Source: Candidatus Latescibacterota bacterium
Lineage (GTDB): Bacteria > Latescibacterota > UBA2968 > GCA-2709665
DNA: 64,000 nt
Direction: 5' to 3'
NCBI GenBank assembly: GCA_965203805.1
Contig: OZ241917.1
Location: 1,216,001-1,280,000, forward strand
Part shown: positions 38,343-48,494 of the stretch, piece by piece
Layout of the letters: each line of letters starts with the position of its first letter
How positions within the stretch are numbered: the stretch's first letter is position 1
Position numbers and translations under genes: made by a program
The notes under the pieces: generated by a model
Databases searched by the model: none
What the model was told of the DNA's origin: nothing
What the model saw: only the letters and a program-made list of their open reading frames with translations

Positions 38343-38569
38343 TAATTCTGGCGGAATAAGTACGCAGCAAATGCAGGCAAGACTCTTGAGGTAAAAAACA
38401 GGGCGACCGCATTCGCCGGTGTCAATGAGCCGATTTGTCCTTGTCTCGCATTTCGAACTCCCCCATCGAAATGCGGATAAGGCGACGTCAGCGTGAGAAT
38501 GGCCGCCTTTCGAACAAGAGAGATCGAAGCACTCCTGTCTGCATGGCACGGTACCAAAAGAGTTTCTGG

Positions 38570-38615
38570 ACAGGTCGCCGGATTTTCTGACCCGATTTCC
38601 GGCGATCTGTTTTTG
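38570..38615 (+). terminator. Putative intrinsic terminator
   Basis: ACAGGTCGCCGGA...TCCGGCGATCTGT stem followed by a T tract. Confidence 0.55.
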
Positions 38616-38619
38616 TGTA

Positions 38620-38658
38620 CAAGACCCCCGGGGGTACCGCGGGGGTCTTGTCGTATCC
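38620..38658 (+). repeat. Hairpin with conserved tail, copy 2
   Basis: CAAGACCCCCG...CGGGGGTCTTG stem plus TCGTATCC; tail matches 18258-18274. Confidence 0.65.
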
Positions 38659-38822
38659 CACAGATCCGGTCGCAGACTGTATCCGGCGCACCAATATACA
38701 TTCACCTGTTTATGTCCATCCAGTCTCGCAATCCAAAAAAAAGCCGCTGGTCCCGTGCCGGCACAGGCCCCTTGGTTTCAACGTCTGGAGGGAGCCCTCA
38801 CGATCGAGCGGAGACACGTAAG

Positions 38823-40988
38823 ATGTCGCCCCGTCGCGCGATGCGAGCCTCCATACTTCTGCTGGCCCTGGTCGTCGTCGGATGCCAGCCGGACGAAACG
38901 GTAACCGTCTCCGGCGCGGTGTCGAAACCGGGGAATTACCGATTCGCGCCGGGCAGGCCGGCCGCTGAATATGTGGAGGATGCGGGCGGCGCAACGGAAG
39001 AGGCGCTGACGGTTGAGGCCTACGTCTTGCGTTCGTGGACGGACACGTCCGCTGCGGCGGAAGGCGGAAACGCGACGATTCCGCTCTCGGATAATCCGGA
39101 GCTGTCGCCCGGGGATGAGATACGGATTCCCGCGCGGGTCTATGACGTGCGGCTGGACACCGTTCGGCGTGTGAGCGACGTCCGGCTGGCCTACCGGGAT
39201 CGAATCTATCGGATTCCCTCGGGCGCTCTGGTGACCGGGCGAACTGAACGCGGCGTCCAGGTGGCGGTGATGCTGGGGCGCGGAGAGGCAATTGAGCCCC
39301 CCGATACCGCCAAGGCCGTTTCCGCCTTTCACTATCTGTACATCCATCTGCATCCCGGCGAATACCCGCGCCTGGCGCGATTCGCCGGCGAAGTTCTGGA
39401 CAGCATGGACGTGCTCGATGACGCCCGCGTCATCCACACGCGCGTCGTAAGCTCCCTGGAACACCGGCGTGCCGGAGGTCTGCAGCTTGCCCCCGACGGG
39501 TATTGGCGCGTGATCGAAGGCTTTTTCCTGGCCCCGAGGAAGACATCGCGCCCCGCAAGAGGCATGCGCAGGCGGCGGTTTGAGGACGGACGGGTGTTGA
39601 CGACCTTTCCGAACGGACGGGAACGATGGCAGCACCCCGACGGGCGGGTCAGGATAACGTCTCCAGGCGGCGCCACCGAAGACCGGCTACCCGACAGACG
39701 GATCGTGTTCACCGACCGGTGGAAGAACGTGCGTACCACATATCCCGACGGACGGATCAACGTGACGTTTTCAAGCGGCGCCACCGAAGACCGGTTTCCC
39801 GACGGAAGAATTGTATTCACCGACCGGCGGAAGAACGTTCGCACCATGTATCCCGACGGACGCCAGGAATTGCGAATGGCAACGGGCGGGCGGGTGATGC
39901 TCGGGGCCGACGGTACCGTGCTTCATTCCGGTTCCGCGGACAGCGCGGCCGCGGGACCTGATTCACGACAGGCGGCGACCGCCCGGATGGAGGAACATCC
40001 CCGGGACACGATCCGCGAACCCGTTGCGGCGACCCGGACCGGCGGCGACCGCCCGCCACCGCGCGGCGAGGGAAGCCTGCGTATCATCCCGTCCAATGAA
40101 TATGGGAAAATAAACGTTCTGGACGGTACGACCCGTGAGACGTTTCCAGACGGGCGACGGGTAGAGACCGATCACCTCGGTCAGAGAATCACCATCTGGC
40201 CCGACGGGAAAAAGGAACTCCGGATGCCTGCCGCCTACGGGTATCCGGGTGAGCTGAAGACGGAGCTTGCAACGGTCGACCGGCTTCCTGAAGCGGTCGA
40301 CGTGGGCGAGGAACTGACGGTGACGGGACAGATCCACGCCGAAGTGGAAGGAATCAACGTCATGGCGTTCCTCGTGCCCGATGGAGATGCGATCGAAGGC
40401 GACGTGCGCCGGGCGGAACGGCGGTTTCACGCGCGGTTCCGGTTCGGCGAGGCAGGGCATTGCCGCGTTCAGGTGCAGGTTGTATTGCCCAAGGCGCGCA
40501 CGTATACGGTTTCACACCAGTCTGTCATTGTCGGCAACCCCGATGGGCTGGAGGACGAAGTCCTTGAAATCCTTCCCTATCCTGGGGACGAGGCCGCGCA
40601 GTTGTTTCTGATCGATCGAATCAACGCTTCCCGGAAGCGGATTCGACGCCGTCCGGTCTCTCCGCATCCCGAACTGATGCACGTGGCCCGCATCCGGCTT
40701 GAAGAGATGCTTGCACAGGGTATCCTGTCCCATTATTCCATGGCGGGACTGGACGTGGGTTGGCATACGACCTACCGGCGGTTGCCCTTCCACCGCGTGA
40801 GTGAAAATGTGGCGAGAACCCGTTTTGTCGAGACGATGCACGCCGGCTGGATGCTGAGCGCGGGGCACCGTGCGAATATCCTGGCGAAGCACTGGACGCA
40901 CGTTGGGGTGGCGGTTGCGGAGGCGGAGGAATCGGTCTGGGGTGTTCAGGTGTTCGGACAGCGTTTCAACCGGAACCCTTTGCGGTAA
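38823..40988 (+). CDS. Lipoprotein: SLBB domain, PDG beta-repeats, C-terminal CAP/SCP domain
   Basis: Lipobox VVGC; V.VSGAV.KPG.Y...AGG...L.PGD.I.IP; many (F/Y/W)PDGR repeats; ENVA...WMLSAGHRANIL...HVGVAV. Confidence 0.75.
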   Translation: MSPRRAMRASILLLALVVVGCQPDETVTVSGAVSKPGNYRFAPGRPAAEYVEDAGGATEEALTVEAYVLRSWTDTSAAAEGGNATIPLSDNPELSPGDEIRIPARVYDVRLDTVRRVSDVRLAYRDRIYRIPSGALVTGRTERGVQVAVMLGRGEAIEPPDTAKAVSAFHYLYIHLHPGEYPRLARFAGEVLDSMDVLDDARVIHTRVVSSLEHRRAGGLQLAPDGYWRVIEGFFLAPRKTSRPARGMRRRRFEDGRVLTTFPNGRERWQHPDGRVRITSPGGATEDRLPDRRIVFTDRWKNVRTTYPDGRINVTFSSGATEDRFPDGRIVFTDRRKNVRTMYPDGRQELRMATGGRVMLGADGTVLHSGSADSAAAGPDSRQAATARMEEHPRDTIREPVAATRTGGDRPPPRGEGSLRIIPSNEYGKINVLDGTTRETFPDGRRVETDHLGQRITIWPDGKKELRMPAAYGYPGELKTELATVDRLPEAVDVGEELTVTGQIHAEVEGINVMAFLVPDGDAIEGDVRRAERRFHARFRFGEAGHCRVQVQVVLPKARTYTVSHQSVIVGNPDGLEDEVLEILPYPGDEAAQLFLIDRINASRKRIRRRPVSPHPELMHVARIRLEEMLAQGILSHYSMAGLDVGWHTTYRRLPFHRVSENVARTRFVETMHAGWMLSAGHRANILAKHWTHVGVAVAEAEESVWGVQVFGQRFNRNPLR

Positions 40989-40991
40989 ACG

Positions 40992-41130
40992 CCGCTGCAG
41001 GCGCGCCTGGCCCATCTGGCGCGCGCCCACGAAACCGCCCTGCTCTGCCTGACCTCAAAAGCCAGGGAGACGCCAAGGGCTGCGGCAATCTCTGCCGCCT
41101 GCTGACCGACGGGCATCTGCGTTCCTCCAA
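40992..41130 (+). pseudogene. Chimeric remnant: imuA fragment fused to dnaE2 fragment
   Basis: 40992-41074 is identical to 43662-43744 (83 bp); 41075-41130 matches 45642-45697 at 53/56. Confidence 0.92.
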
Positions 41131-41172
41131 CGTAAACAGGGATAGGAGCCGGCCTTTATTGTCACGGACCCG

Positions 41173-42969
41173 TCAATCCCCCACCTTTATCCGAAGGCTC
41201 GATGTGCCCTTGAGAAACAGATCGACGTCCTGTTGCGCGGAAACAGTCCCCACGGGGACCTGGTCCTGAGGAGGAAACACGTCTCCGGGCTCGGATCCGG
41301 GCGGCGTAAAGTCAACCGGACCCGTTTCTTCAAGTGGCGTTACATAACTCAACCTGGCCATCAGCAGGACATTCTGGTCCGCTTGATTCAGCCGTGCGAA
41401 AACATCGTCGATCGTCTCCTCGTCAGGTTCATCATCAACCGGTTCTCCACGTCCAATGGACCTCAACACGGGGGAGTCATCCTGCAATGCCGCGACGGAA
41501 CCTGCAATGAGTTGGTAGACGCCGGCCGGAAACGTATCCGGCACGCTGAGCGTCAGCGCGATTTTCCGGTCGCTCCGCCGCCCCACGCGCAACGATACGT
41601 TAACGGCCAGCCTGTCCCCTGGACTGACGACGGTGTCCGCGGCGACGTCCATCACCTTGGCAAAACGAGGCTCGGAGATCACTTCGATGTGAACCTCGGC
41701 CTCCCGTACCCGCAAGGCGTAATCGTCCCTGTCCATAAGCCCGATGAGTGTGAAGAACAAATCTCCCTGGGCAGTCTCAACCAAAGAGGTGAGCCCTCCT
41801 CCGAGCGAGGCGTTCAGCCGGGAAAAAGCAAGCGTCGAATCGGTGCCGACAAAGGAAATATCCGTGGTAACGCGGATACTGTGATCCGGCTCATTGTCGA
41901 CCCGACTGGACAAAGGAGCAAAAAACGCACTGGCGACGAGATCGCTCGAGATACGTGGAGCGACACCAATGGCGGGCATCCTGTGCGCAAGCTCGACAAG
42001 GTCCCCCGATGGAAACGTATACACGCTCTTGATCGGTACCAATTCCGGGCCGTCATCGAGCACGCCGCGAACCGCTAGCCGGCGGTCCTCCGTCAGTGTG
42101 CCCCGCACCGTCGGGTTCAGCGTCGCGAACTTGTACGGCGCTCTCAAATTGGAGATTTCTCCGAGCACCCGCGCTTCGATTATTGGAAGCGCCACCGGAC
42201 CCACTCCCAACATGGGATGCCCGAAACCATATATTCGATCGCCGTCAACGTAGGATATGGTTCCCAAGGAGCTGATGGTAAGCTCGCCCAGCAGCAAACC
42301 AACCGCCAGCGGCCTTCCGGGCGCAAAGCTTTCCTGGCGCTGCCGCGTCAACCCGGCGGCCACCGCCTCGCTCAGGAGGGACGAATCCCCTCCAGGCGGC
42401 GGCATACGATTGAACCCCGTGCTCAGCAAGGGGATATCCAGGGGGACGATACGGCGCCCCCGCAAAGTGGCCGCGCGTTTGGCCACCGGCGCCGTTCCCT
42501 TGGAGCCGATGACCCATTCCATCGGCGTGGCAAAGAAGTAGTACGGCGGACTGTCCTGGGAATCAAATCCATAAGCGATGGCGCCCCAGGCGCCCTGCTC
42601 GGTGAAAACCGGCGAACCGCTCATACCCTTGGCAATCCCCCCGAGCTGTATCAAAACCGGGTCGGAGGCTTCCACCATGTAGACCGGCATAGGCGGCAGG
42701 AAATCATCGACTACCTGGATGAACTTCATTTTCAGGTCCACGAGTTCGCCATTGGCGAATTCGGTGCGCAGGAACACCGGCGTGCCCACTGGCCTGGACC
42801 GGACCGAGTCGATCGATACGACCCTGGAGAGATCCCATGGTTGCAACTCTCCACCTGGTTCCGGCTCTTGCGGAGCGAGTGGAGGATCACGATCGTCCCC
42901 ACAGGACCACAGAACGAGAAACACGAAGGGAAAAAGCGCGGAGCGAATCGACGTAATCGTGAGTTGCAT
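41173..42969 (-). CDS. SpoIVB peptidase S55-domain lipoprotein
   Basis: Lipobox-like LWSC; GIAKGMSGSPV...GAIAYG; GTISYVDG...GFGHP. Confidence 0.85.
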   Translation of the reverse strand: MQLTITSIRSALFPFVFLVLWSCGDDRDPPLAPQEPEPGGELQPWDLSRVVSIDSVRSRPVGTPVFLRTEFANGELVDLKMKFIQVVDDFLPPMPVYMVEASDPVLIQLGGIAKGMSGSPVFTEQGAWGAIAYGFDSQDSPPYYFFATPMEWVIGSKGTAPVAKRAATLRGRRIVPLDIPLLSTGFNRMPPPGGDSSLLSEAVAAGLTRQRQESFAPGRPLAVGLLLGELTISSLGTISYVDGDRIYGFGHPMLGVGPVALPIIEARVLGEISNLRAPYKFATLNPTVRGTLTEDRRLAVRGVLDDGPELVPIKSVYTFPSGDLVELAHRMPAIGVAPRISSDLVASAFFAPLSSRVDNEPDHSIRVTTDISFVGTDSTLAFSRLNASLGGGLTSLVETAQGDLFFTLIGLMDRDDYALRVREAEVHIEVISEPRFAKVMDVAADTVVSPGDRLAVNVSLRVGRRSDRKIALTLSVPDTFPAGVYQLIAGSVAALQDDSPVLRSIGRGEPVDDEPDEETIDDVFARLNQADQNVLLMARLSYVTPLEETGPVDFTPPGSEPGDVFPPQDQVPVGTVSAQQDVDLFLKGTSSLRIKVGD

Positions 42970-43113
42970 AGCGGTTCCCTTTCTCCCTCTCCTTTGTTCC
43001 TTAAGATTAATATAGGTCCGTATACTTCTCTTCGTATAACAGAAATATACGGACTTAATCGAAAAACACAAGACCGGCCCCGGGTTCGGTAACCCCCGGG
43101 CCCGGCGCGTGCC

Positions 43114-43171
43114 GTGACGTATGTCACATTTTTGCAAAAAACACTTGACAAAACAGACATCTGTCTGTTTT
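43114..43171. promoter_or_regulatory. Palindrome cluster and -35 box upstream of imuA
   Basis: GTGAC-N4-GTCAC (43114-43127), TTTTTGCAAAAA, TTGACA (43145-43150), AAAACAGACA-TC-TGTCTGTTTT (43150-43171). Confidence 0.7.
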
Positions 43172-43175
43172 TTGT

Positions 43176-43901
43176 TTGTGGACACTCCTTCAGGAGCATG
43201 CGGAACCGTTTTCACTCCCGGGAAAGGTCGGCCAGGTGCGGGGCGTATCGGGAAATATCAAACAAAAACGCTTTTCAGCCTTGCAGGACAACGGGTTGCA
43301 GCGCCTCCGGGCCGATCTGAACAGGATCAGGACCCGGACGAAAACGCCGTGCTGGTCGCTGGCGCAGTTGGCCGGGCGTCTTTGCGAACTCTCCTCCGAT
43401 TCGGGAGCCGGGCTGCTCACGGCTGCCTTCCGGCTGGTGCTGGACGCGCAGTTCGGGCATGAGCCGGCGGCCTGGATCACGGCCACGCCGGATACCTTTT
43501 TCGCCCCCGATGCAGCCGACAACGGCGTGGACCTGAATGCCCTCGTCGTCGTCCACGTGCCCGATGCGCAGTCCGCGGCGCGATCGGCGGACCGGCTCCT
43601 GAGGTCAGGCGCCTTCGGCCTGATAGTAATGGATCTGCACGCCGATCCCGCAATCCCGTTTCCGCTGCAGGCGCGCCTGGCCCATCTGGCGCGCGCCCAC
43701 GAAACCGCCCTGCTCTGCCTGACCTCAAAAGCCAGGGAGACGCCTTCGCTGGGACCGATGGTCTGTCTGCGAGGGCAATCCTCCTGCCAGCGCCTGGGGG
43801 TCGACCGCTTCCAATACGACATCGAAATTCTGAAGGACAGACGTCATGGACCGGGCTGGCGCCACACCGAAATCTGCCGCGGGCCGGACGGCCTGCATTA
43901 A
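43176..43901 (+). CDS. imuA: ImuA-like RecA-fold protein (start uncertain)
   Basis: WSL..LAGRL.ELS, GVDL..L.VV, LLRSGAFGLIVMD; first gene of the cassette. Confidence 0.82.
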   Translation: MWTLLQEHAEPFSLPGKVGQVRGVSGNIKQKRFSALQDNGLQRLRADLNRIRTRTKTPCWSLAQLAGRLCELSSDSGAGLLTAAFRLVLDAQFGHEPAAWITATPDTFFAPDAADNGVDLNALVVVHVPDAQSAARSADRLLRSGAFGLIVMDLHADPAIPFPLQARLAHLARAHETALLCLTSKARETPSLGPMVCLRGQSSCQRLGVDRFQYDIEILKDRRHGPGWRHTEICRGPDGLH

Positions 43902-45375
43902 TATCCGGGCGCTTCCGCTGCAACTCCTGCTGAGGAGACACCCGGAATGGAAGCGGAGGCCGGTCGCGGTGGTGGAAAAAGAGAATCCTCAGAGCCCCAT
44001 CCTCTGGGTGAACTCAGCGGCCGGGCGGGCCGGCATCCGCACGGGAATGCGCTATGCCTCGGCCCTTTCACTGGACCGGGACCTGTGCGCAGGAACGGTT
44101 TCCGAGAGGGAAATCCAGGCCGCGGTGCGACAGGTCCACCGGCTTCTGGACCGTTTCAGCCCCCGGATCGAGCCCTGCAACGACGAACCCGGGATTTTCT
44201 GGGTCGACGCCAGCGGACTCGACAAACTCCATGCTTCTCTTGAGGACTGGGCCATGCAGATCGACTCCCGCCTCTCCCGGCTGGCGCTGAAGGCCAGCAT
44301 CGTCGTCGGGTTCAGCCGTTTCGGCAGCTATGCCATCGCCAGGTCGGTGAACCGGGTGACCGTGTTTCCTTCCCCCGAGGTCGAGCAGGCGGAAAGCCGA
44401 ATGGTGCGGCTGCTGCATCTGCAAATCGACCCGAAGCTGCGCGACCGGCTCGAAAAACTGGCGGTTCACACCGTGAGCGATTTCCTGGCGCTTCCCTCGG
44501 GCGGCATCGCGCATCGCCTCGGCGAGCAGGCCTGGAGCCTCTACCGTTTTGCGTCGGGAACGCTGTCGCTGCCGATTCAATCCCGGAAGATCCCCGAGCC
44601 CCTCCGCGTCCGGATAGACCTGGACGAGCCCGAATCCAATGCCCAAAGACTCCTTTTCTGGATCCGGCGGCGGCTGGACCCCCTGTTGCGGGCCACGGCG
44701 GCAAGGTGCCAGGCGGTGGCGGCCCTGCACCTGCACCTGCTGCTGGAAGACGGAGACCGTCATCGCCGGCGCATCCAGCCGGCAAGGCCGACCCTGGAGG
44801 CGCCGGTCCTGCTGGACCTGCTCGGTTTGCACCTGGAAACGGTCTCTTTCCGCGCGCCTCCGGTGGAATTGGCCCTCGAGGCGGAGGGTGTGTTCGTCTC
44901 CGCCGAAACCCTGGACCTGCTGCAGCAGAATCCGCGCCGCAATCTCGAGGCGGCCCTGGATGCGCTGGCCCGTGTCCGCGCCGAGTTCGGCCCCGATTCC
45001 GTGCTGTCGGCCCGGCTCAAACCGGGGCACCTGCCGGAAGCCCGTTTCGAGTGGCAGCCCTTCAGGAAGCTTGCCGCAGCCAGTCCCCGCCCGGTCCCCG
45101 TGCGTCCCCTGGTGCGGCGCGTCCACGCCTGTCCCGGACTCCTGGAAGGGGCTTCCCTTTACCAGGCGAAAAACCGGAAGCCGCCGGGCGCCTGTCTGCG
45201 TGCGGACACGCACAGGCAGGCGGAGCACTCGCCGGGACACGCGATCAGCGGAGGATGGTGGCGCCGGGAGATCCGGAGAGACTACCGGTTCATCAACACC
45301 CGCCGGGGGGAACGCCTCTGGATCTATTACGACCAGCAGGCGCGCCGCTGGTACGCCCAGGGCCGCGTCGAGTGA
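43846..45375 (+). CDS. imuB: ImuB, Y-family polymerase homologue (likely catalytically inactive)
   Basis: A..AGI..GM, FSPRIE, WVDASG, C-terminal GGWW...RDY. Confidence 0.9.
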   Translation: MDRAGATPKSAAGRTACINIRALPLQLLLRRHPEWKRRPVAVVEKENPQSPILWVNSAAGRAGIRTGMRYASALSLDRDLCAGTVSEREIQAAVRQVHRLLDRFSPRIEPCNDEPGIFWVDASGLDKLHASLEDWAMQIDSRLSRLALKASIVVGFSRFGSYAIARSVNRVTVFPSPEVEQAESRMVRLLHLQIDPKLRDRLEKLAVHTVSDFLALPSGGIAHRLGEQAWSLYRFASGTLSLPIQSRKIPEPLRVRIDLDEPESNAQRLLFWIRRRLDPLLRATAARCQAVAALHLHLLLEDGDRHRRRIQPARPTLEAPVLLDLLGLHLETVSFRAPPVELALEAEGVFVSAETLDLLQQNPRRNLEAALDALARVRAEFGPDSVLSARLKPGHLPEARFEWQPFRKLAAASPRPVPVRPLVRRVHACPGLLEGASLYQAKNRKPPGACLRADTHRQAEHSPGHAISGGWWRREIRRDYRFINTRRGERLWIYYDQQARRWYAQGRVE

Positions 45376-48300
45376 CCAGACCCGCCTCCAACCCGCCGCC
45401 CTACGTGCCTCTCTGGTGCAAGAGCAACTATTCCTTTCTGGAAGGCGCCAGCCATCCCGAGGAACTGGTCGAGGCCTGCCGGCGGAACGGCCTTCCCGCC
45501 ATGGCCCTCACCGACCGGAACGGCGTGTACGGAATCGTCAGGGCCCACGTTCAGGCCCAACAGGCGGGCATACACCTGATCGCGGGATCGCAGATCGGCC
45601 TCCAGGACGGATCGGAAATCCTGCTGCTGGCCCGGAACCGGAAGGGTTACGGCAATCTCTGCCGCCTGCTGACCGACGGGCATCTGCGTTCGTCCAAAGG
45701 AACGTGTACGCCGGGTCTGGAGGACGTATGCCGCCGCAATCCCGGCCTGATCGCCCTGTGGACCGGCCGGGCCGGGCCGGAAGCGCCCGCGGAGGGCGGC
45801 CCGGAGCCCGTACTGGAACAGCTCAAAACGGCATTCGGAGACCGCCTGTACATCCTGTTGGCCAGGCACCGCCGGGCGGAGGAGGTCCTGCGGGAAATCC
45901 GGCTCCGGGAACTGGCGGACCGGTTCGGCCTTCCCACCGCGGCCGCCGTGGAGGTCCTCTATCATACCCCCGAACGACGGCGCCTGCAGGATGTCCTCAC
46001 CTGTATCCGGGAAGGCGTGACCCTGTCCACGGCGGGCCGGAACATCCGGCCGAACGACCAGCACGCTCTGAAGCGTCCGGACGATCTGGCCCGCCTCTTC
46101 ATGGACGATCCGGAGTCGGTCATGCGGACCCGGGAAATTGCCGACCGCTGCTCCTTCTCGCTCCAGGAACTGCGCTACCGCTATCCGCTGGAACGCGTGC
46201 CGGAGGGCAGGACTTCCATCCAGTACCTGCGCGACCGGACGTTCGAGGGCGCCGAGCGACGGATGGGTGAAAAGTTCCAGAGCCAGATTCCGCAACTGGA
46301 GAAGGAACTCGATCTGATCCAGGAACTGGAGTACGAAGGCTACTTCCTGACCATGTACGAGATCGTCGAGTACTGCCGCCGTGAAAATATCCTCTGCCAG
46401 GGCCGGGGGTCGGCCGCCAACTCGGCGGTCTGCTTCGCCCTGGGGATCACCAGCGTGGACCCGACCCAGGTGGAACTTCTCTTCGAACGCTTTCTGTCCA
46501 GGGAGAGGGCCGAGCCTCCGGATATCGACCTGGATATCGAACACAACCGCAGGGAAGAAGTGATCCAGCATATGTACGAAAAATACGGGCGCGACCGCGC
46601 CGCCATGGTAGCCAACGTGGTACGTTATCGGTACCGGTCCGCCATCCGGGAAGTGGGCAAGGCGCTGGAGATTTCGGCAACCGGCCTGGACCGCCTGGCC
46701 AAGCTGGTGTCCCATGAAAACTGGAGCGACGCCTTCATTGCGCAGGCCGGGCTCGATCCCCGGAACCCGGCCCTGCGCCATCTCGCTTCCCTGGTGGAAG
46801 AGATCCAGGATTTTCCCCGCCATCTCTCCATACATCCCGGCGGCTTTCTGCTGGGCCATCGTCCTGTCCACGAACTGGTGCCCATCGAGAACGCCACGAT
46901 GGACGGCAGAACGGTCATTCAATGGGACAAGGAGGACGTGGAGCAGGCCGGTCTGTTCAAGGTGGACCTGCTGGGACTGGGCGCCCTCACCCATCTGCAT
47001 CTCTGCTTCGATCTCCTGCGGCGGCACCGCCGGCAGAACCTGTCTCTGGCCACCCTTCCCCGGGACGACGCGGCGACCTTCGAAATGATCTGCCGCAGCG
47101 ATACCGTGGGGGTGTTTCAGATCGAAAGCCGGGCGCAGATGGCCATGCTGGGGCGACTCAAGCCGTGCAGCTATTACGACCTGGTGATCGAGATCAGCAT
47201 TGTGCGTCCCGGACCCATCACGGGCGGCATGGTGCATCCCTATCTGCGGCGGCGCAATGAGGACGAGGAAGTCGAATATCCCCATCCTTCCCTCGTTCCC
47301 GTTCTAAAAAAAACCATGGGCATCCCTCTGTTTCAAGAGCAGGTGATGCAACTGGCCATGGTTGCGGCCGACTACACCCCCGGCGAGGCCGACCAGCTCC
47401 GGCGAGACATGGCGGCTTGGCGGCGTTCCGGACGCATTGAGCGGCATCACCGCCGCCTCGTCACCCGCATGGTTAAAAAGGGCATCCAGCGGGAGTTTGC
47501 CGAGCGTGTTTTCCAGCAGATCCGCGGGTTCGGCGAATACGGCTTTCCCGAGAGCCATGCCGCCAGCTTTGCCCATATCGCCTATGCCACCGCCTATCTC
47601 AAATGCCACCGTCCGGCGGAGTTCGTCTGCGCCCTGCTGAACGCCCAGCCGATGGGGTTCTACTCTGCCGCCACCATCGTCAACGACGCCCGGATTCATG
47701 GGGTTGAGGTGCAACCGGTCAGCATTCTCGACAGCCACTGGGATTGCACGCTGGTCCGAATTGAGAGTGATCAAGGGAAATCCGCCGAGTTCGCGGTTCG
47801 CATGGGACTGCGCTACGTCGGAGAGTTGGGCGAAAGAGACTGGGAGAAGTTGGCGAAGGCCTCTCGGCAGACCCCCTTCCGCGATCTGCCGGACGTCGCC
47901 CGGCGCAGCGGGCTTCGCCAGGACAAGTTGGAAGCCCTGGCCGAGGCAGGCGCCTTCGAATGTTTCGGTATGGACCGCCGCAGTGCGCTCTGGCAGATCC
48001 ACGGGTTCGCAACCCAACAAAAGCCTGTGCTGCCATTGAGCAGCCGCGCCCCGCTGCCTCAGTTCCCCCCCCTGAGCGGGCTGGAGACCATCGTCTGGGA
48101 CCATCAGGCCAGCAGCCACAGCTCCCGGGGCCACCTCTTGAAACCGCTGCGTTCCGCGCTGGCTGCTCGGGGGCTACCCAATGCCCGCCAACTCAATCGG
48201 ATGCCGGACAGCCGCCGGGTCAGCTACGCGGGGATGGTCATTTGTCGCCAGCGCCCGGGAACCGCGAAAGGCGTCATCTTCATGACCCTGGAGGATGAGA

Positions 48301-48494
48301 CGGGTTTTGTGAACCTGGTTATCTGGGAAAGGACTTTCAAGCGCTATTCCCTGCTGGCCAAAACGCTTTCCTGCATGGGCGTGACCGGAAAACTGCAGGT
48401 GGGAGAGGGCGTCACCCACCTGGTGGTTGAAAAAATCTGGAAGCCGAAGCTGGATAACGGGTCGCTCCGCCTCAAGAGCCGGGATTTTCATTGA
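45372..48494 (+). CDS. dnaE2: Error-prone DNA polymerase DnaE2 (ImuC)
   Basis: GTGA overlap with imuB; SNYSFLEGAS, GRGSAANS, PPDIDLD, GFPESHAASF, QRPGTAKG..FMTLEDETG. Confidence 0.97.
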   Translation: MTRPASNPPPYVPLWCKSNYSFLEGASHPEELVEACRRNGLPAMALTDRNGVYGIVRAHVQAQQAGIHLIAGSQIGLQDGSEILLLARNRKGYGNLCRLLTDGHLRSSKGTCTPGLEDVCRRNPGLIALWTGRAGPEAPAEGGPEPVLEQLKTAFGDRLYILLARHRRAEEVLREIRLRELADRFGLPTAAAVEVLYHTPERRRLQDVLTCIREGVTLSTAGRNIRPNDQHALKRPDDLARLFMDDPESVMRTREIADRCSFSLQELRYRYPLERVPEGRTSIQYLRDRTFEGAERRMGEKFQSQIPQLEKELDLIQELEYEGYFLTMYEIVEYCRRENILCQGRGSAANSAVCFALGITSVDPTQVELLFERFLSRERAEPPDIDLDIEHNRREEVIQHMYEKYGRDRAAMVANVVRYRYRSAIREVGKALEISATGLDRLAKLVSHENWSDAFIAQAGLDPRNPALRHLASLVEEIQDFPRHLSIHPGGFLLGHRPVHELVPIENATMDGRTVIQWDKEDVEQAGLFKVDLLGLGALTHLHLCFDLLRRHRRQNLSLATLPRDDAATFEMICRSDTVGVFQIESRAQMAMLGRLKPCSYYDLVIEISIVRPGPITGGMVHPYLRRRNEDEEVEYPHPSLVPVLKKTMGIPLFQEQVMQLAMVAADYTPGEADQLRRDMAAWRRSGRIERHHRRLVTRMVKKGIQREFAERVFQQIRGFGEYGFPESHAASFAHIAYATAYLKCHRPAEFVCALLNAQPMGFYSAATIVNDARIHGVEVQPVSILDSHWDCTLVRIESDQGKSAEFAVRMGLRYVGELGERDWEKLAKASRQTPFRDLPDVARRSGLRQDKLEALAEAGAFECFGMDRRSALWQIHGFATQQKPVLPLSSRAPLPQFPPLSGLETIVWDHQASSHSSRGHLLKPLRSALAARGLPNARQLNRMPDSRRVSYAGMVICRQRPGTAKGVIFMTLEDETGFVNLVIWERTFKRYSLLAKTLSCMGVTGKLQVGEGVTHLVVEKIWKPKLDNGSLRLKSRDFH

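What the first reader, a model, noticed from the sequence alone, without database searches (positions are those of the whole stretch)
40992..41130. 139-bp chimera of imuA and dnaE2 fragments 2.7 kb upstream of the intact mutasome
Seen: 83 bp identical to imuA (43662-43744) fused directly to 56 bp of dnaE2 (45642-45697), skipping 1.9 kb including imuB. Two of the three dnaE2 mismatches are synonymous (GGT/GGC, TCG/TCC), suggesting a once-functional diverged copy rather than an assembly echo. It lies between two convergent genes, about 40 bp past the stop of the minus-strand S55 gene that shares a divergent promoter region with imuA. Inference: either the scar of a second imuABC copy, or a 3'-UTR antisense RNA able to pair with two genes of the mutasome mRNA. 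The 83-bp direct repeat could also delete the S55 gene and imuA promoter by recombination.
Basis: partly seen in the sequence, partly recalled or inferred. Interest (0 to 1): 0.72.

Follow-up and report, generated by a model that had tools for sequence, protein, structure and literature searches.

The report
Insertion-junction scar copied from mutasome genes
The 139-base imuA/dnaE2 chimera is real, but it is most likely a leftover scar at one edge of a 2.1-kb gene insertion found only in this lineage, not a regulator or a relic of a working second operon.

Summary
Bases 40992-41074 are a perfect copy of imuA 43662-43744. Bases 41075-41130 are a 53/56 copy of dnaE2 45642-45697. The own 5.87-Mb genome has no other copy.

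Context changes the reading. None of the 12 same-genus genomes I fetched has the 2137 nt at 40999-43135. In 11 of them the CAP-domain gene sits 34-225 nt from the imuA promoter. The chimera is the left end of this insert, which carries an S55-like lipoprotein gene. That gene is closest to other genera (77-79% aa, against 60-71% within the genus), and its usual locus is empty in this genome.

The left junction uses a 7-nt microhomology, CCGCTGC. The two synonymous dnaE2 differences arose in the resident gene; the patch's own change is nonsynonymous. Contigs of an independent sponge metagenome carry the chimera with two further changes. It is therefore not an assembly echo and is not held identical to its source.

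There is no structure signal and no Rfam match.

Best reading: a neutral illegitimate-recombination or template-switch scar. The exact route is unresolved, and the antisense idea is untested.

The parts
38493..40988 (+). 831-aa gene with SLBB, Tcp10_C-like repeat and C-terminal CAP/YkwD domains. In relatives it is the direct upstream neighbour of imuA.
   Evidence: Its 3' end aligns to 11 of 12 fetched relatives up to 40980-40998.
40992..40998 (+). Junction J1: the 7-nt microhomology CCGCTGC, shared by the ancestral intergenic sequence (ACGCCGCTGCG in the nearest relative) and imuA position 487.
   Evidence: The insert-free joint 40998>43136 in run X13.
40992..41074 (+). imuA-derived patch: 83 nt, 100% identical to 43662-43744, in sense orientation.
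   Evidence: A separate 83-nt unitig at about twice the flanking depth in X3 (38.5 against 19.5).
41075..41130 (+). dnaE2-derived patch: 56 nt, 53/56 identical to 45642-45697, in sense orientation. It is joined to the imuA patch with no microhomology (J2).
41131..41135 (.). 5 nt (CGTAA) that could not be assigned to dnaE2 or to the foreign segment (J3 zone).
40999..43135 (.). The whole 2137-nt insertion relative to other species. It replaces about 40 nt that held a hairpin after the CAP-gene stop.
   Evidence: In run X13 a contig joins 40998 to 43136 with 40 ancestral letters between.
41136..42852 (-). Foreign segment, 83.5% nt identical to the S55-like locus of another genus (G015), including about 35 nt beyond the stop codon.
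41173..42966 (-). S55-like gene (597 aa plus stop). The probable true start is 42966, followed by a signal peptide ending LWSC, a lipobox by my reading.
   Evidence: RNA contigs of X19 cover parts of it.
42967..43135 (-). Upstream region of the S55-like gene, brought in with the insert. It has no homologue in 40 relatives and varies strongly between strains.
   Evidence: Many substitutions and indels at 43006-43079 in X4 and X13.
43145..43171 (+). imuA promoter region kept intact just right of junction J4: TTGACA followed by the palindrome AAAACAGACATCTGTCTGTTTT (putative SOS operator).
   Evidence: Conserved in all 12 relatives aligned.
43662..43744 (+). Source of the imuA patch, inside the imuA-like gene 43176-43901.
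45642..45697 (+). Source of the dnaE2 patch, inside dnaE2 (about 45372-48494), which encodes KGYGNLCRLLTDGHLRSS.

Best explanation
The chimera is a non-functional junction scar. An ancestor of this lineage acquired a roughly 2.0-kb foreign segment carrying an S55-like lipoprotein gene with its own upstream region. It was inserted between the CAP-domain gene and the imuA promoter, replacing about 40 nt.

At the left edge, two short stretches were copied from the operon just downstream and built into the joint, in source order and orientation: 83 nt of imuA from 2.7 kb away and 56 nt of dnaE2 from 4.6 kb away.

My preferred route (inferred) is a single illegitimate, Ku-independent event of serial template switching, of the MMBIR/FoSTeS or short-patch kind. 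A nascent 3' end leaves the intergenic template at CCGCTGC and re-pairs with the same heptamer in imuA. It copies 83 nt, jumps 1.9 kb forward into dnaE2 and copies 56 nt. It then continues on the incoming DNA and finally rejoins just upstream of the imuA -35 box.

Since then the patch has drifted neutrally, while the resident dnaE2 has changed only at synonymous sites.

Shown: the insertion, its boundaries, the J1 microhomology, the local origin of the patches, the polarity of the changes, and presence in independent samples. Inferred: that all joints arose in one event, and that the patch has no function.
For: The insert is lineage-specific. 0 of 12 fetched same-genus genomes has it, and in 11 of 12 the CAP gene ends 34-225 nt before the imuA promoter homology. 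0 of 40 relatives searched has the fused imuA/dnaE2 arrangement; 13 of 14 same-genus genomes have both pieces, about 1.9-2.1 kb apart where both lie on one contig.

The S55-like gene is foreign or relocated. Its best matches are in other genera (79, 77 and 77% aa), against 60-71% within the genus. Its usual locus, with flanks conserved in G012 and G015, holds only about 260 nt in this genome.

J1 lies in a 7-nt microhomology.

The patches are of local origin. The imuA patch is 100% identical to the own gene but 93-96% identical to most other species.

Polarity: 2 of the 3 dnaE2 differences are derived, synonymous changes in the resident gene, and 1 is a nonsynonymous change in the patch.

In X4 the patch has 2 changes (41034, 41064), while a contig over that strain's imuA (43674-43870) shows only one, at another site.

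There is no Ku gene in the 99.8%-complete genome, so classical end-joining is unlikely.

The fold is no better than shuffles (z -0.62 and +0.51), and there is no credible Rfam match: only two chance-level hits inside the S55-like gene, E 0.5 and 0.9, far below gathering score.
Against: J2 has no microhomology, which is not typical of template switching. J3 and J4 cannot be judged because no donor was found.

Nothing proves that the four joints arose together.

Age signal: 0/83 differences in the imuA patch against 3/56 in the dnaE2 patch could mean two events or gene conversion. By my hand calculation, all three falling in the 56-nt part has a probability of about 0.06.

A genome-wide scan found only one other low-copy chimeric local patch, and that one lies in a repeat-rich variable region. 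There is therefore no sign that this is a frequent process here.

Function has not been tested at the RNA level.
Confidence: 0.5

Rival explanations
1. Duplication then decay. The foreign segment was integrated together with a tandem duplication of [promoter-imuA-imuB-first 326 nt of dnaE2], so that the insert sat at the duplication joint. Two later deletions trimmed the upstream copy to 83 + 56 nt. One deletion ran from the intergenic CCGCTGC to the imuA CCGCTGC; the other ran from imuA position 569 to dnaE2 position 271. This is the reader's 'scar of a second copy' in a weaker form: a transient partial duplicate, never an independent diverged operon.
For: The pieces are co-linear and in the same orientation, as a decayed duplicate requires.

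The 7-nt repeat at J1 is typical of slippage deletions.

A tandem duplicate flanking a useful insert would be unstable, so deletions that shorten the homology would be favoured (general knowledge).

Tandem duplication linked to newly transferred genes is in print (PMC11111574, search listing and abstract only).
Against: It needs three events where one suffices. J2 is blunt. No other operon remnant exists in the insert. No intermediate form was seen in X3, X4 or X13. No relative has a second copy.
Confidence: 0.27
2. Functional antisense tail. The S55-like mRNA lost its native terminator and so reads through into the patch. That gives a 139-nt tail complementary to the imuA and dnaE2 parts of the mutasome mRNA, which pairs with that mRNA and lowers or processes it.
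For: The patch begins 42 nt after the stop of the S55-like gene. The G015-like downstream hairpins are not part of the insert. The scan found no terminator-like site between the two convergent genes. Complementarity would be 83/83 and 53/56. An RNA library (X19) holds contigs of the CAP gene, the S55-like gene and imuA.
Against: The patch is absent from every other species searched (0 of 40). It has 2 changes in X4 that are not mirrored in that strain's imuA. One nonsynonymous-type change is private to the patch. There is no structure signal and no Rfam family. Its origin as a junction by-product needs no function.
Confidence: 0.08
3. Separate short-patch events. The two patches entered independently as ectopic single strands annealing at microhomologies (SPDIR-type), before or after the S55-like segment arrived.
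For: The patch sizes (83 and 56 nt) fall within the 3 to about 100 bp given for SPDIR, which can use intragenomic strands (10.1101/2023.11.22.568220, abstract and introduction read). The uneven divergence (0/83 against 3/56) would fit two dates.
Against: The two patches abut exactly, and they abut the insert. That would require three independent rare events at one spot. J2 shows no microhomology.
Confidence: 0.08
4. Assembly artefact of a metagenome-derived long-read genome.
For: Relatives are titled as MAGs. The genome scores 9.3% contamination, though its relatives score similarly.
Against: Short-read-derived contigs of X3 and X4 carry the same joints. X4 comes from a different study and has its own substitutions.
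Confidence: 0.02

Closest known systems
Complex rearrangements by serial template switching (FoSTeS / microhomology-mediated break-induced replication; PMC2621351 and PMC3161906, seen as search listing and abstract only)
   Same: Short stretches copied from nearby sequence are built into a breakpoint, with several joints in one place. One joint has a 7-nt microhomology. Duplicated pieces are discontinuous, with deletion of what lay between them.
   Different: Here the event also carries about 2 kb of foreign DNA. One joint is blunt. The single-event nature is inferred, not observed. The organism is an uncultured bacterium for which no repair genetics are known.
[quoted passage not shown]
   Same: Ectopic patches of up to about 100 bp, of intragenomic origin, are integrated at microhomologies. 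The process is rare and is promoted by DNA damage or DNA uptake.
   Different: SPDIR gives one small patch that replaces a few bases. Here two abutting patches sit at the edge of a 2-kb insertion.
Homology-facilitated illegitimate recombination during DNA uptake or conjugation (PMC3240628, listing and abstract only)
   Same: Foreign DNA is integrated with at least one illegitimate joint at a short microhomology.
   Different: HFIR needs a homologous anchor on one side of the incoming molecule. No anchor can be shown here because the donor is unknown.
Decayed tandem duplicate or gene remnant (pseudogene fragment)
   Same: Co-linear, same-strand pieces of neighbouring genes lie in an intergenic region and drift neutrally.
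   Different: Only 139 of about 2,500 nt remain. No relative has a second copy. The pieces sit exactly at an insertion boundary.
cis-encoded antisense or 3'-UTR-derived regulatory RNAs
   Same: There is potential long perfect complementarity to an mRNA, and the patch lies downstream of a stop codon.
   Different: There is no evidence of a defined transcript, no conservation and no structure signal.

Membership tests
Templated-insertion / template-switch breakpoint (MMBIR/FoSTeS-like) | Inserted stretches are copies of sequence lying nearby in the same genome | tested here: met
   83 nt from 2.7 kb away and 56 nt from 4.6 kb away. They are the only copies in the genome.
Templated-insertion / template-switch breakpoint (MMBIR/FoSTeS-like) | Microhomology at the joints | tested here: inconclusive
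   J1 has 7 nt and J2 has 0 nt. J3 and J4 cannot be judged without the donor.
Templated-insertion / template-switch breakpoint (MMBIR/FoSTeS-like) | All joints formed in one event | not testable with these tools
   No intermediate forms were seen in X3, X4 or X13, but only 4 of the 22 listed runs could be laid.
Remnant of a second imuA-imuB-dnaE2 operon | A second copy, or further remnants of it, in this genome or in relatives | tested here: not met
   No further operon fragment in the insert or the genome. There is one imuA site and one dnaE2 site per genome in 13 of 14 same-genus genomes and none in the 14th.
Remnant of a second imuA-imuB-dnaE2 operon | Differences from the resident genes reflect past purifying selection on the copy | tested here: not met
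   Both synonymous differences are derived in the resident dnaE2. The only change in the patch itself is nonsynonymous.
Antisense / 3'-UTR regulatory RNA | Transcribed on the minus strand as a defined RNA | not testable with these tools
   Only contigs of one RNA library were available, and they carry no strand or end information.
Antisense / 3'-UTR regulatory RNA | Conserved among relatives or held complementary to its targets | tested here: not met
   Absent in 0 of 40 relatives. In X4 the patch has 2 changes not seen in that strain's imuA.
Antisense / 3'-UTR regulatory RNA | Stable structure, terminator or known family | tested here: not met
   z -0.62 on the + strand and +0.51 on the - strand. 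No terminator-like site lies in 40989-41172. The only Rfam rows are two chance-level hits elsewhere in the stretch (41386-41439; E 0.5 and 0.9, far below gathering score).
SPDIR | A single ectopic patch of 3 to about 100 bp flanked by two microhomology crossovers | tested here: inconclusive
   The sizes fit. But there are two abutting patches, J2 is blunt, and a 2-kb insertion is attached.
ImuA-ImuB-DnaE2 mutasome operon (identity of the source genes) | DnaE2-type polymerase preceded by a Y-family-like ImuB and a RecA-fold ImuA behind an SOS-type operator | tested here: met
   dnaE2 matches NF004225 at 1330 bits (cut-off 939). The imuB-like gene has an IMS domain (E 3e-14). The imuA-like gene has only weak ImuA/RecA hits, below cut-off. 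The palindrome upstream is conserved in 12 relatives. The operator role is inferred.

The most novel reading that the evidence does not exclude
The two patches were copied not from DNA but from one molecule of the damage-induced polycistronic imuA-imuB-dnaE2 mRNA. A polymerase jumped along the RNA while a break was being mended, and the product was sealed into the joint together with the incoming DNA. That would make this a natural scar of RNA-templated break repair in a bacterium.

The reading rests only on both pieces coming from one transcription unit, on the sense strand and in transcript order. The genome's single reverse transcriptase is a Drt8-type defence enzyme, which gives it no particular support.

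A second reading is also not excluded: the antisense 3'-UTR idea, which I put at about 0.08.
Probability: 0.03. Interest if true: 0.8.

Novelty: new member of a known kind. Interest (0 to 1): 0.3.

Why it matters
This is a clean natural example of how a single foreign gene became wired into a bacterial chromosome without any mobile-element machinery. It comes from an uncultured sponge-, coral- or marine-associated lineage; the relatives' records are titled Candidatus Latescibacterota.

The joint still shows which local templates were used, which heptamer guided one switch, and roughly how long ago it happened, since two synonymous changes have arisen in dnaE2 since. Scars of this kind help calibrate how often illegitimate, microhomology-guided integration contributes to gene gain in genomes that lack Ku.

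It also guards against over-reading. A striking 'two-gene chimera next to the mutasome' turns out to be explained by proximity alone.

One practical consequence remains. The 83-nt perfect direct repeat is a potential substrate for a 2670-nt deletion that would remove the new gene, the imuA promoter and the first 486 nt of imuA.

Tried and rejected
RNA evidence. The coral metatranscriptome run X19 has contigs over 40336-40957, parts of 41698-43152, and 43453-43815, but none over the chimera. These are contigs without strand, and a stretch without cover says nothing, so I draw no conclusion about transcription from them.

Deletion through the 83-nt repeat. No 40992>43662-type joint appeared in the four runs laid. 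Contigs drop rare variants, so this is not evidence of absence.

Metagenome searches. An exact 26-nt pattern from the 3' end of the S55-like gene found 0 stretches in metagenome contigs. The protein scan of the same collection gave 2 loci, at 77% over a partial match and at 24%. Neither is a donor or an intermediate form.

Donor search. Across 53 genomes of the order, nothing was closer than 79% aa. In genome contigs, the 32 loci found were all at most 69% identical. The N-terminal and upstream 296 nt of the insert have no homologue in 40 relatives; the only hit was one 22-nt chance-level match. The microhomology at J3 and J4 therefore stays unknown.

The filler of about 260 nt at the emptied native S55-like locus shows no patchwork from elsewhere, only a short dispersed motif.

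Genome-wide search for the same architecture (two abutting short hits of at least 90% identity to non-adjacent places within 30 kb, low copy). It returned 8 pair rows. Apart from the present case, only one (genome 2414805-2415170) looked similar. It lies in a repeat- and cassette-rich variable region, so I do not count it as the same process.

A DGR-like template/variable repeat was considered and rejected. The three mismatches are not adenine-specific.

A Campbell-type integration through the 83-nt repeat was considered and rejected. Excising the 2670-nt unit would leave the CAP stop fused to imuA codon 163, not the ancestral arrangement seen in relatives.

The search of earlier findings returned nothing for this place.

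Full report
**1. The observation**

The repeat finder lists 40992-41074 and 43662-43744 as an 83-nt pair at 100% identity. It lists 41075-41135 and 45642-45702 as a 61-nt pair at 92%, of which the first 56 nt are 53/56 identical.

The sources lie in an imuA-like ORF (43176-43901) and in dnaE2 (about 45372-48494), with imuB (43846-45375) between them. dnaE2 is firmly named: NCBIfam 'error-prone DNA polymerase', 1330 bits against a cut-off of 939. The imuA-like and imuB-like genes give only weak, sub-threshold family hits plus an IMS domain.

The window's genome is a single contig of 5,865,457 bases. The chimera and its two sources are the only matches in it. A chance origin is out of the question (E 1e-36 and 3e-18).

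**2. What surrounds it**

I fetched the region upstream of imuA from 12 of the 13 same-genus genomes that matched the patch. G005 was left out because its contigs are too short, and the 14th genome, G001, had no match. I aligned these to the window.

In 11 of the 12, the 831-aa CAP/SLBB-domain gene (window 38493-40988) ends 34-225 nt before the conserved imuA promoter. In the 12th (G009) most of that gene is missing. None of the 12 contains anything like window 40999-43135.

In the nearest relative (G012) homology runs to 40998 and resumes at 43136. The 40 nt between them form a hairpin after the stop codon. One contig of run X13 shows the same insert-free joint (40998>43136, with 40 ancestral letters between).

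This lineage therefore carries a 2137-nt insertion, and the chimera is its left end. The rest of the insert is one gene on the minus strand with its upstream region. The long ORF (41173-43215) probably starts at 42966, where a signal peptide ending LWSC begins (the lipobox reading is mine). Its Pfam S55 hit is below cut-off.

**3. Where the inserted gene comes from**

The protein is 77-79% identical to genes of three genomes in two other genera of the family. It is only 60-71% identical to the copies in the 14 same-genus genomes.

At DNA level, 41142-42852 is 83.5% identical to the locus in G015, and by eye the likeness continues to about 41136, roughly 35 nt past the stop. It is only 73% identical to the copy in G012.

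In G012 and G015 the gene lies between flanks that map to genome positions 4,466,520-4,470,815 and 4,471,078-4,475,963 of the window's genome. Only about 260 unrelated bases lie there in this genome. The usual locus is thus empty, and a different allele, or a xenologue, sits beside imuA.

No closer donor turned up in 53 genomes of the order, in the genome collection or in the metagenome collection. The first 296 nt of the insert's right-hand part have no homologue in 40 relatives.

Records holding relatives of this gene are titled MAGs of Candidatus Latescibacterota, a few of Gemmatimonadota. The runs that hold the stretch are labelled sponge, coral and marine metagenomes.

**4. The joints**

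- **J1.** The relatives read ...GGTAAACGCCGCTGCG..., imuA reads ...TTTCCGCTGCAGG..., and the window reads ...GGTAAACGCCGCTGCAGG.... The crossover lies within a shared heptamer, CCGCTGC.
- **J2** (imuA to dnaE2) has no shared base.
- **J3.** After the 56 nt of dnaE2 come five unassigned bases (CGTAA), and then the G015-like sequence.
- **J4** lies directly upstream of the TTGACA and the palindrome AAAACAGACATCTGTCTGTTTT. Both are conserved in all 12 relatives and left intact.

No Ku gene was found in the 99.8%-complete genome.

**5. Polarity of the three dnaE2 differences**

I aligned the patch with the resident gene and with 14 relatives (13 same-genus and G016).

| Patch position | Patch | Resident dnaE2 | Relatives | Reading |
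|---|---|---|---|---|
| 41080 | C | T | C in 14 of 14 | derived in the resident gene, synonymous |
| 41125 | C | G | C in 12, T in 2, G in none | derived in the resident gene, synonymous |
| 41082 | G | A | A in 14 of 14 | derived in the patch, Tyr to Cys |

The synonymous pattern therefore reflects selection on the working gene after the copy was made. It does not reflect a working past of the copy. The patch preserves the older dnaE2 sequence plus one neutral change.

The imuA patch shows 0/83 differences. All three differences falling in the 56-nt part has a probability of about 0.06 by my hand calculation, so this is not significant. Gene conversion or two dates remain possible.

**6. Independent samples**

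Of the 22 runs listed, 15 hold half or more of the sampled words of 40600-43300. I could lay four.

- **X3** (same organism label, another sample): contigs 40300-41021, 40992-41074 (depth 38.5 against 19.5 beside it, as expected for a two-copy repeat), 41045-41124 and 41095-41222, all without differences.
- **X4** (sponge metagenome, another study): contigs 40300-41021, 41004-41112 and 41101-43691. The middle contig crosses J2 with 71 and 38 letters and differs at 41034 (A>T) and 41064 (A>C). The contig over that strain's imuA (43674-43870) differs only at 43789. In that strain, therefore, the patch has drifted away from its source.
- **X13**: holds both an insert-free joint and contigs of the insert (41101-42445, with 19 differences).

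Several contigs enter the repeat by exactly 30 letters, one fewer than the tool's bridging rule. That is what k=31 unitigs do at a repeat.

The chimera is therefore real, it predates the split of strains that differ by about 1.3% across the insert, and it is not kept identical to its targets.

**7. Tests for function**

Neither strand of 40975-41185 folds better than shuffles (z -0.62 and +0.51). No terminator-like or promoter-like site lies between the two stop codons. Rfam gave only two chance-level hits elsewhere.

The patch is in sense orientation on the + strand, directly after the CAP-gene stop, and in antisense orientation in the wake of the S55-like gene. Because the ancestral hairpin was deleted and the G015-type downstream hairpins were not imported, read-through from either gene is plausible. 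The antisense idea therefore cannot be dismissed on anatomy. It has no positive support, however, and the drift in X4 argues against constraint.

**8. Mechanism**

The firm part is that the chimera is a by-product of the integration of a foreign or relocated gene next to the operon, and that it was copied from that operon because the operon was near. I put this at about 0.85.

For the route, I prefer one illegitimate event with serial template switches (0.5 for the full statement). In this route the 3' end leaves at CCGCTGC, re-pairs 570 nt downstream, copies 83 nt, jumps 1.9 kb forward, copies 56 nt, moves to the incoming DNA, and returns upstream of the promoter.

The main rival (0.27) is integration together with a tandem duplication of promoter-imuA-imuB-dnaE2', followed by two deletions. 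Separate short-patch events (0.08), a functional antisense tail (0.08) and an assembly artefact (0.02) follow.

The patterns resemble three processes in print:
- MMBIR/FoSTeS breakpoints (PMC2621351, PMC3161906; listing and abstract only).
- SPDIR patches of 3 to about 100 bp (10.1101/2023.11.22.568220; abstract and introduction read).
- Homology-facilitated illegitimate recombination (PMC3240628; listing and abstract only).

I made no search aimed at showing that such a scar is absent from the literature, so I claim none.

**9. Is it a general process in this genome?**

A self-comparison for abutting short local copies gave 8 pair rows. Only one other low-copy case resembles this one. It consists of three co-linear pieces of 147, 110 and 96 nt at genome 2,414,805-2,415,170, copied from the 1.9 kb just upstream, beside a Cas6b gene. 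In relatives that region is full of dispersed repeats and cassette-like duplications, so I leave it as a side note.

**10. Verdict**

It is a new example of a known kind of mutational scar. Its modest interest lies in being a datable natural record of microhomology-guided gene integration in an uncultured phylum, and in the 83-nt repeat, which makes the new gene and the imuA 5' end deletable.

Noticed in passing
genome positions 4470815-4471078 (outside the window): The locus where G012 and G015 keep their S55-like gene is empty in this genome. About 260 unrelated bases lie between flanks that are otherwise 87-92% conserved with G012.
   Followed up: partly
window 43145-43171: TTGACA followed by a perfect palindrome, AAAACAGACATCTGTCTGTTTT, lies just upstream of imuA and is conserved in all 12 relatives aligned. 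It is probably the SOS operator of this lineage, though its motif is unlike the E. coli LexA box (that comparison is from memory).
   Followed up: no
window 43006-43079: The upstream region of the S55-like gene contains a 20-nt inverted repeat (43013-43032 / 43038-43057). It is a hotspot of substitutions and indels between strains: 1-, 6- and 22-nt deletions and single-base insertions in X4 and X13.
   Followed up: no
window 39636-39851: A tandem 108-nt repeat (81% identical) lies inside the CAP/SLBB-domain gene, in the region with the Tcp10_C-like repeat match. Relatives show the same repeats.
   Followed up: no
genome positions 2414805-2415170 (locus L092 4806-5171): Three co-linear pieces (147, 110 and 96 nt, 90-96% identical) of the 1.9 kb just upstream are packed together beside a Cas6b gene. 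The region is variable and repeat-rich in relatives.
   Followed up: partly
locus L092 5330-5470 (genome about 2415330-2415470): A dispersed repeat of about 80-140 nt has dozens of copies in G012, G008, G013 and G003. It looks like a REP/MITE-type element.
   Followed up: no
genome positions about 1678993-1680561 (locus L091 733-2301, minus strand): The genome's only reverse transcriptase gene found with PF00078 matches the PADLOC Drt8 model over its full length (E 1e-159).
   Followed up: partly
window 41173-43215: The mechanical ORF of the S55-like gene overlaps the imuA start. The likely true start is 42966 (signal peptide with LWSC), so the two genes are divergent, with about 210 nt between them.
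   Followed up: yes
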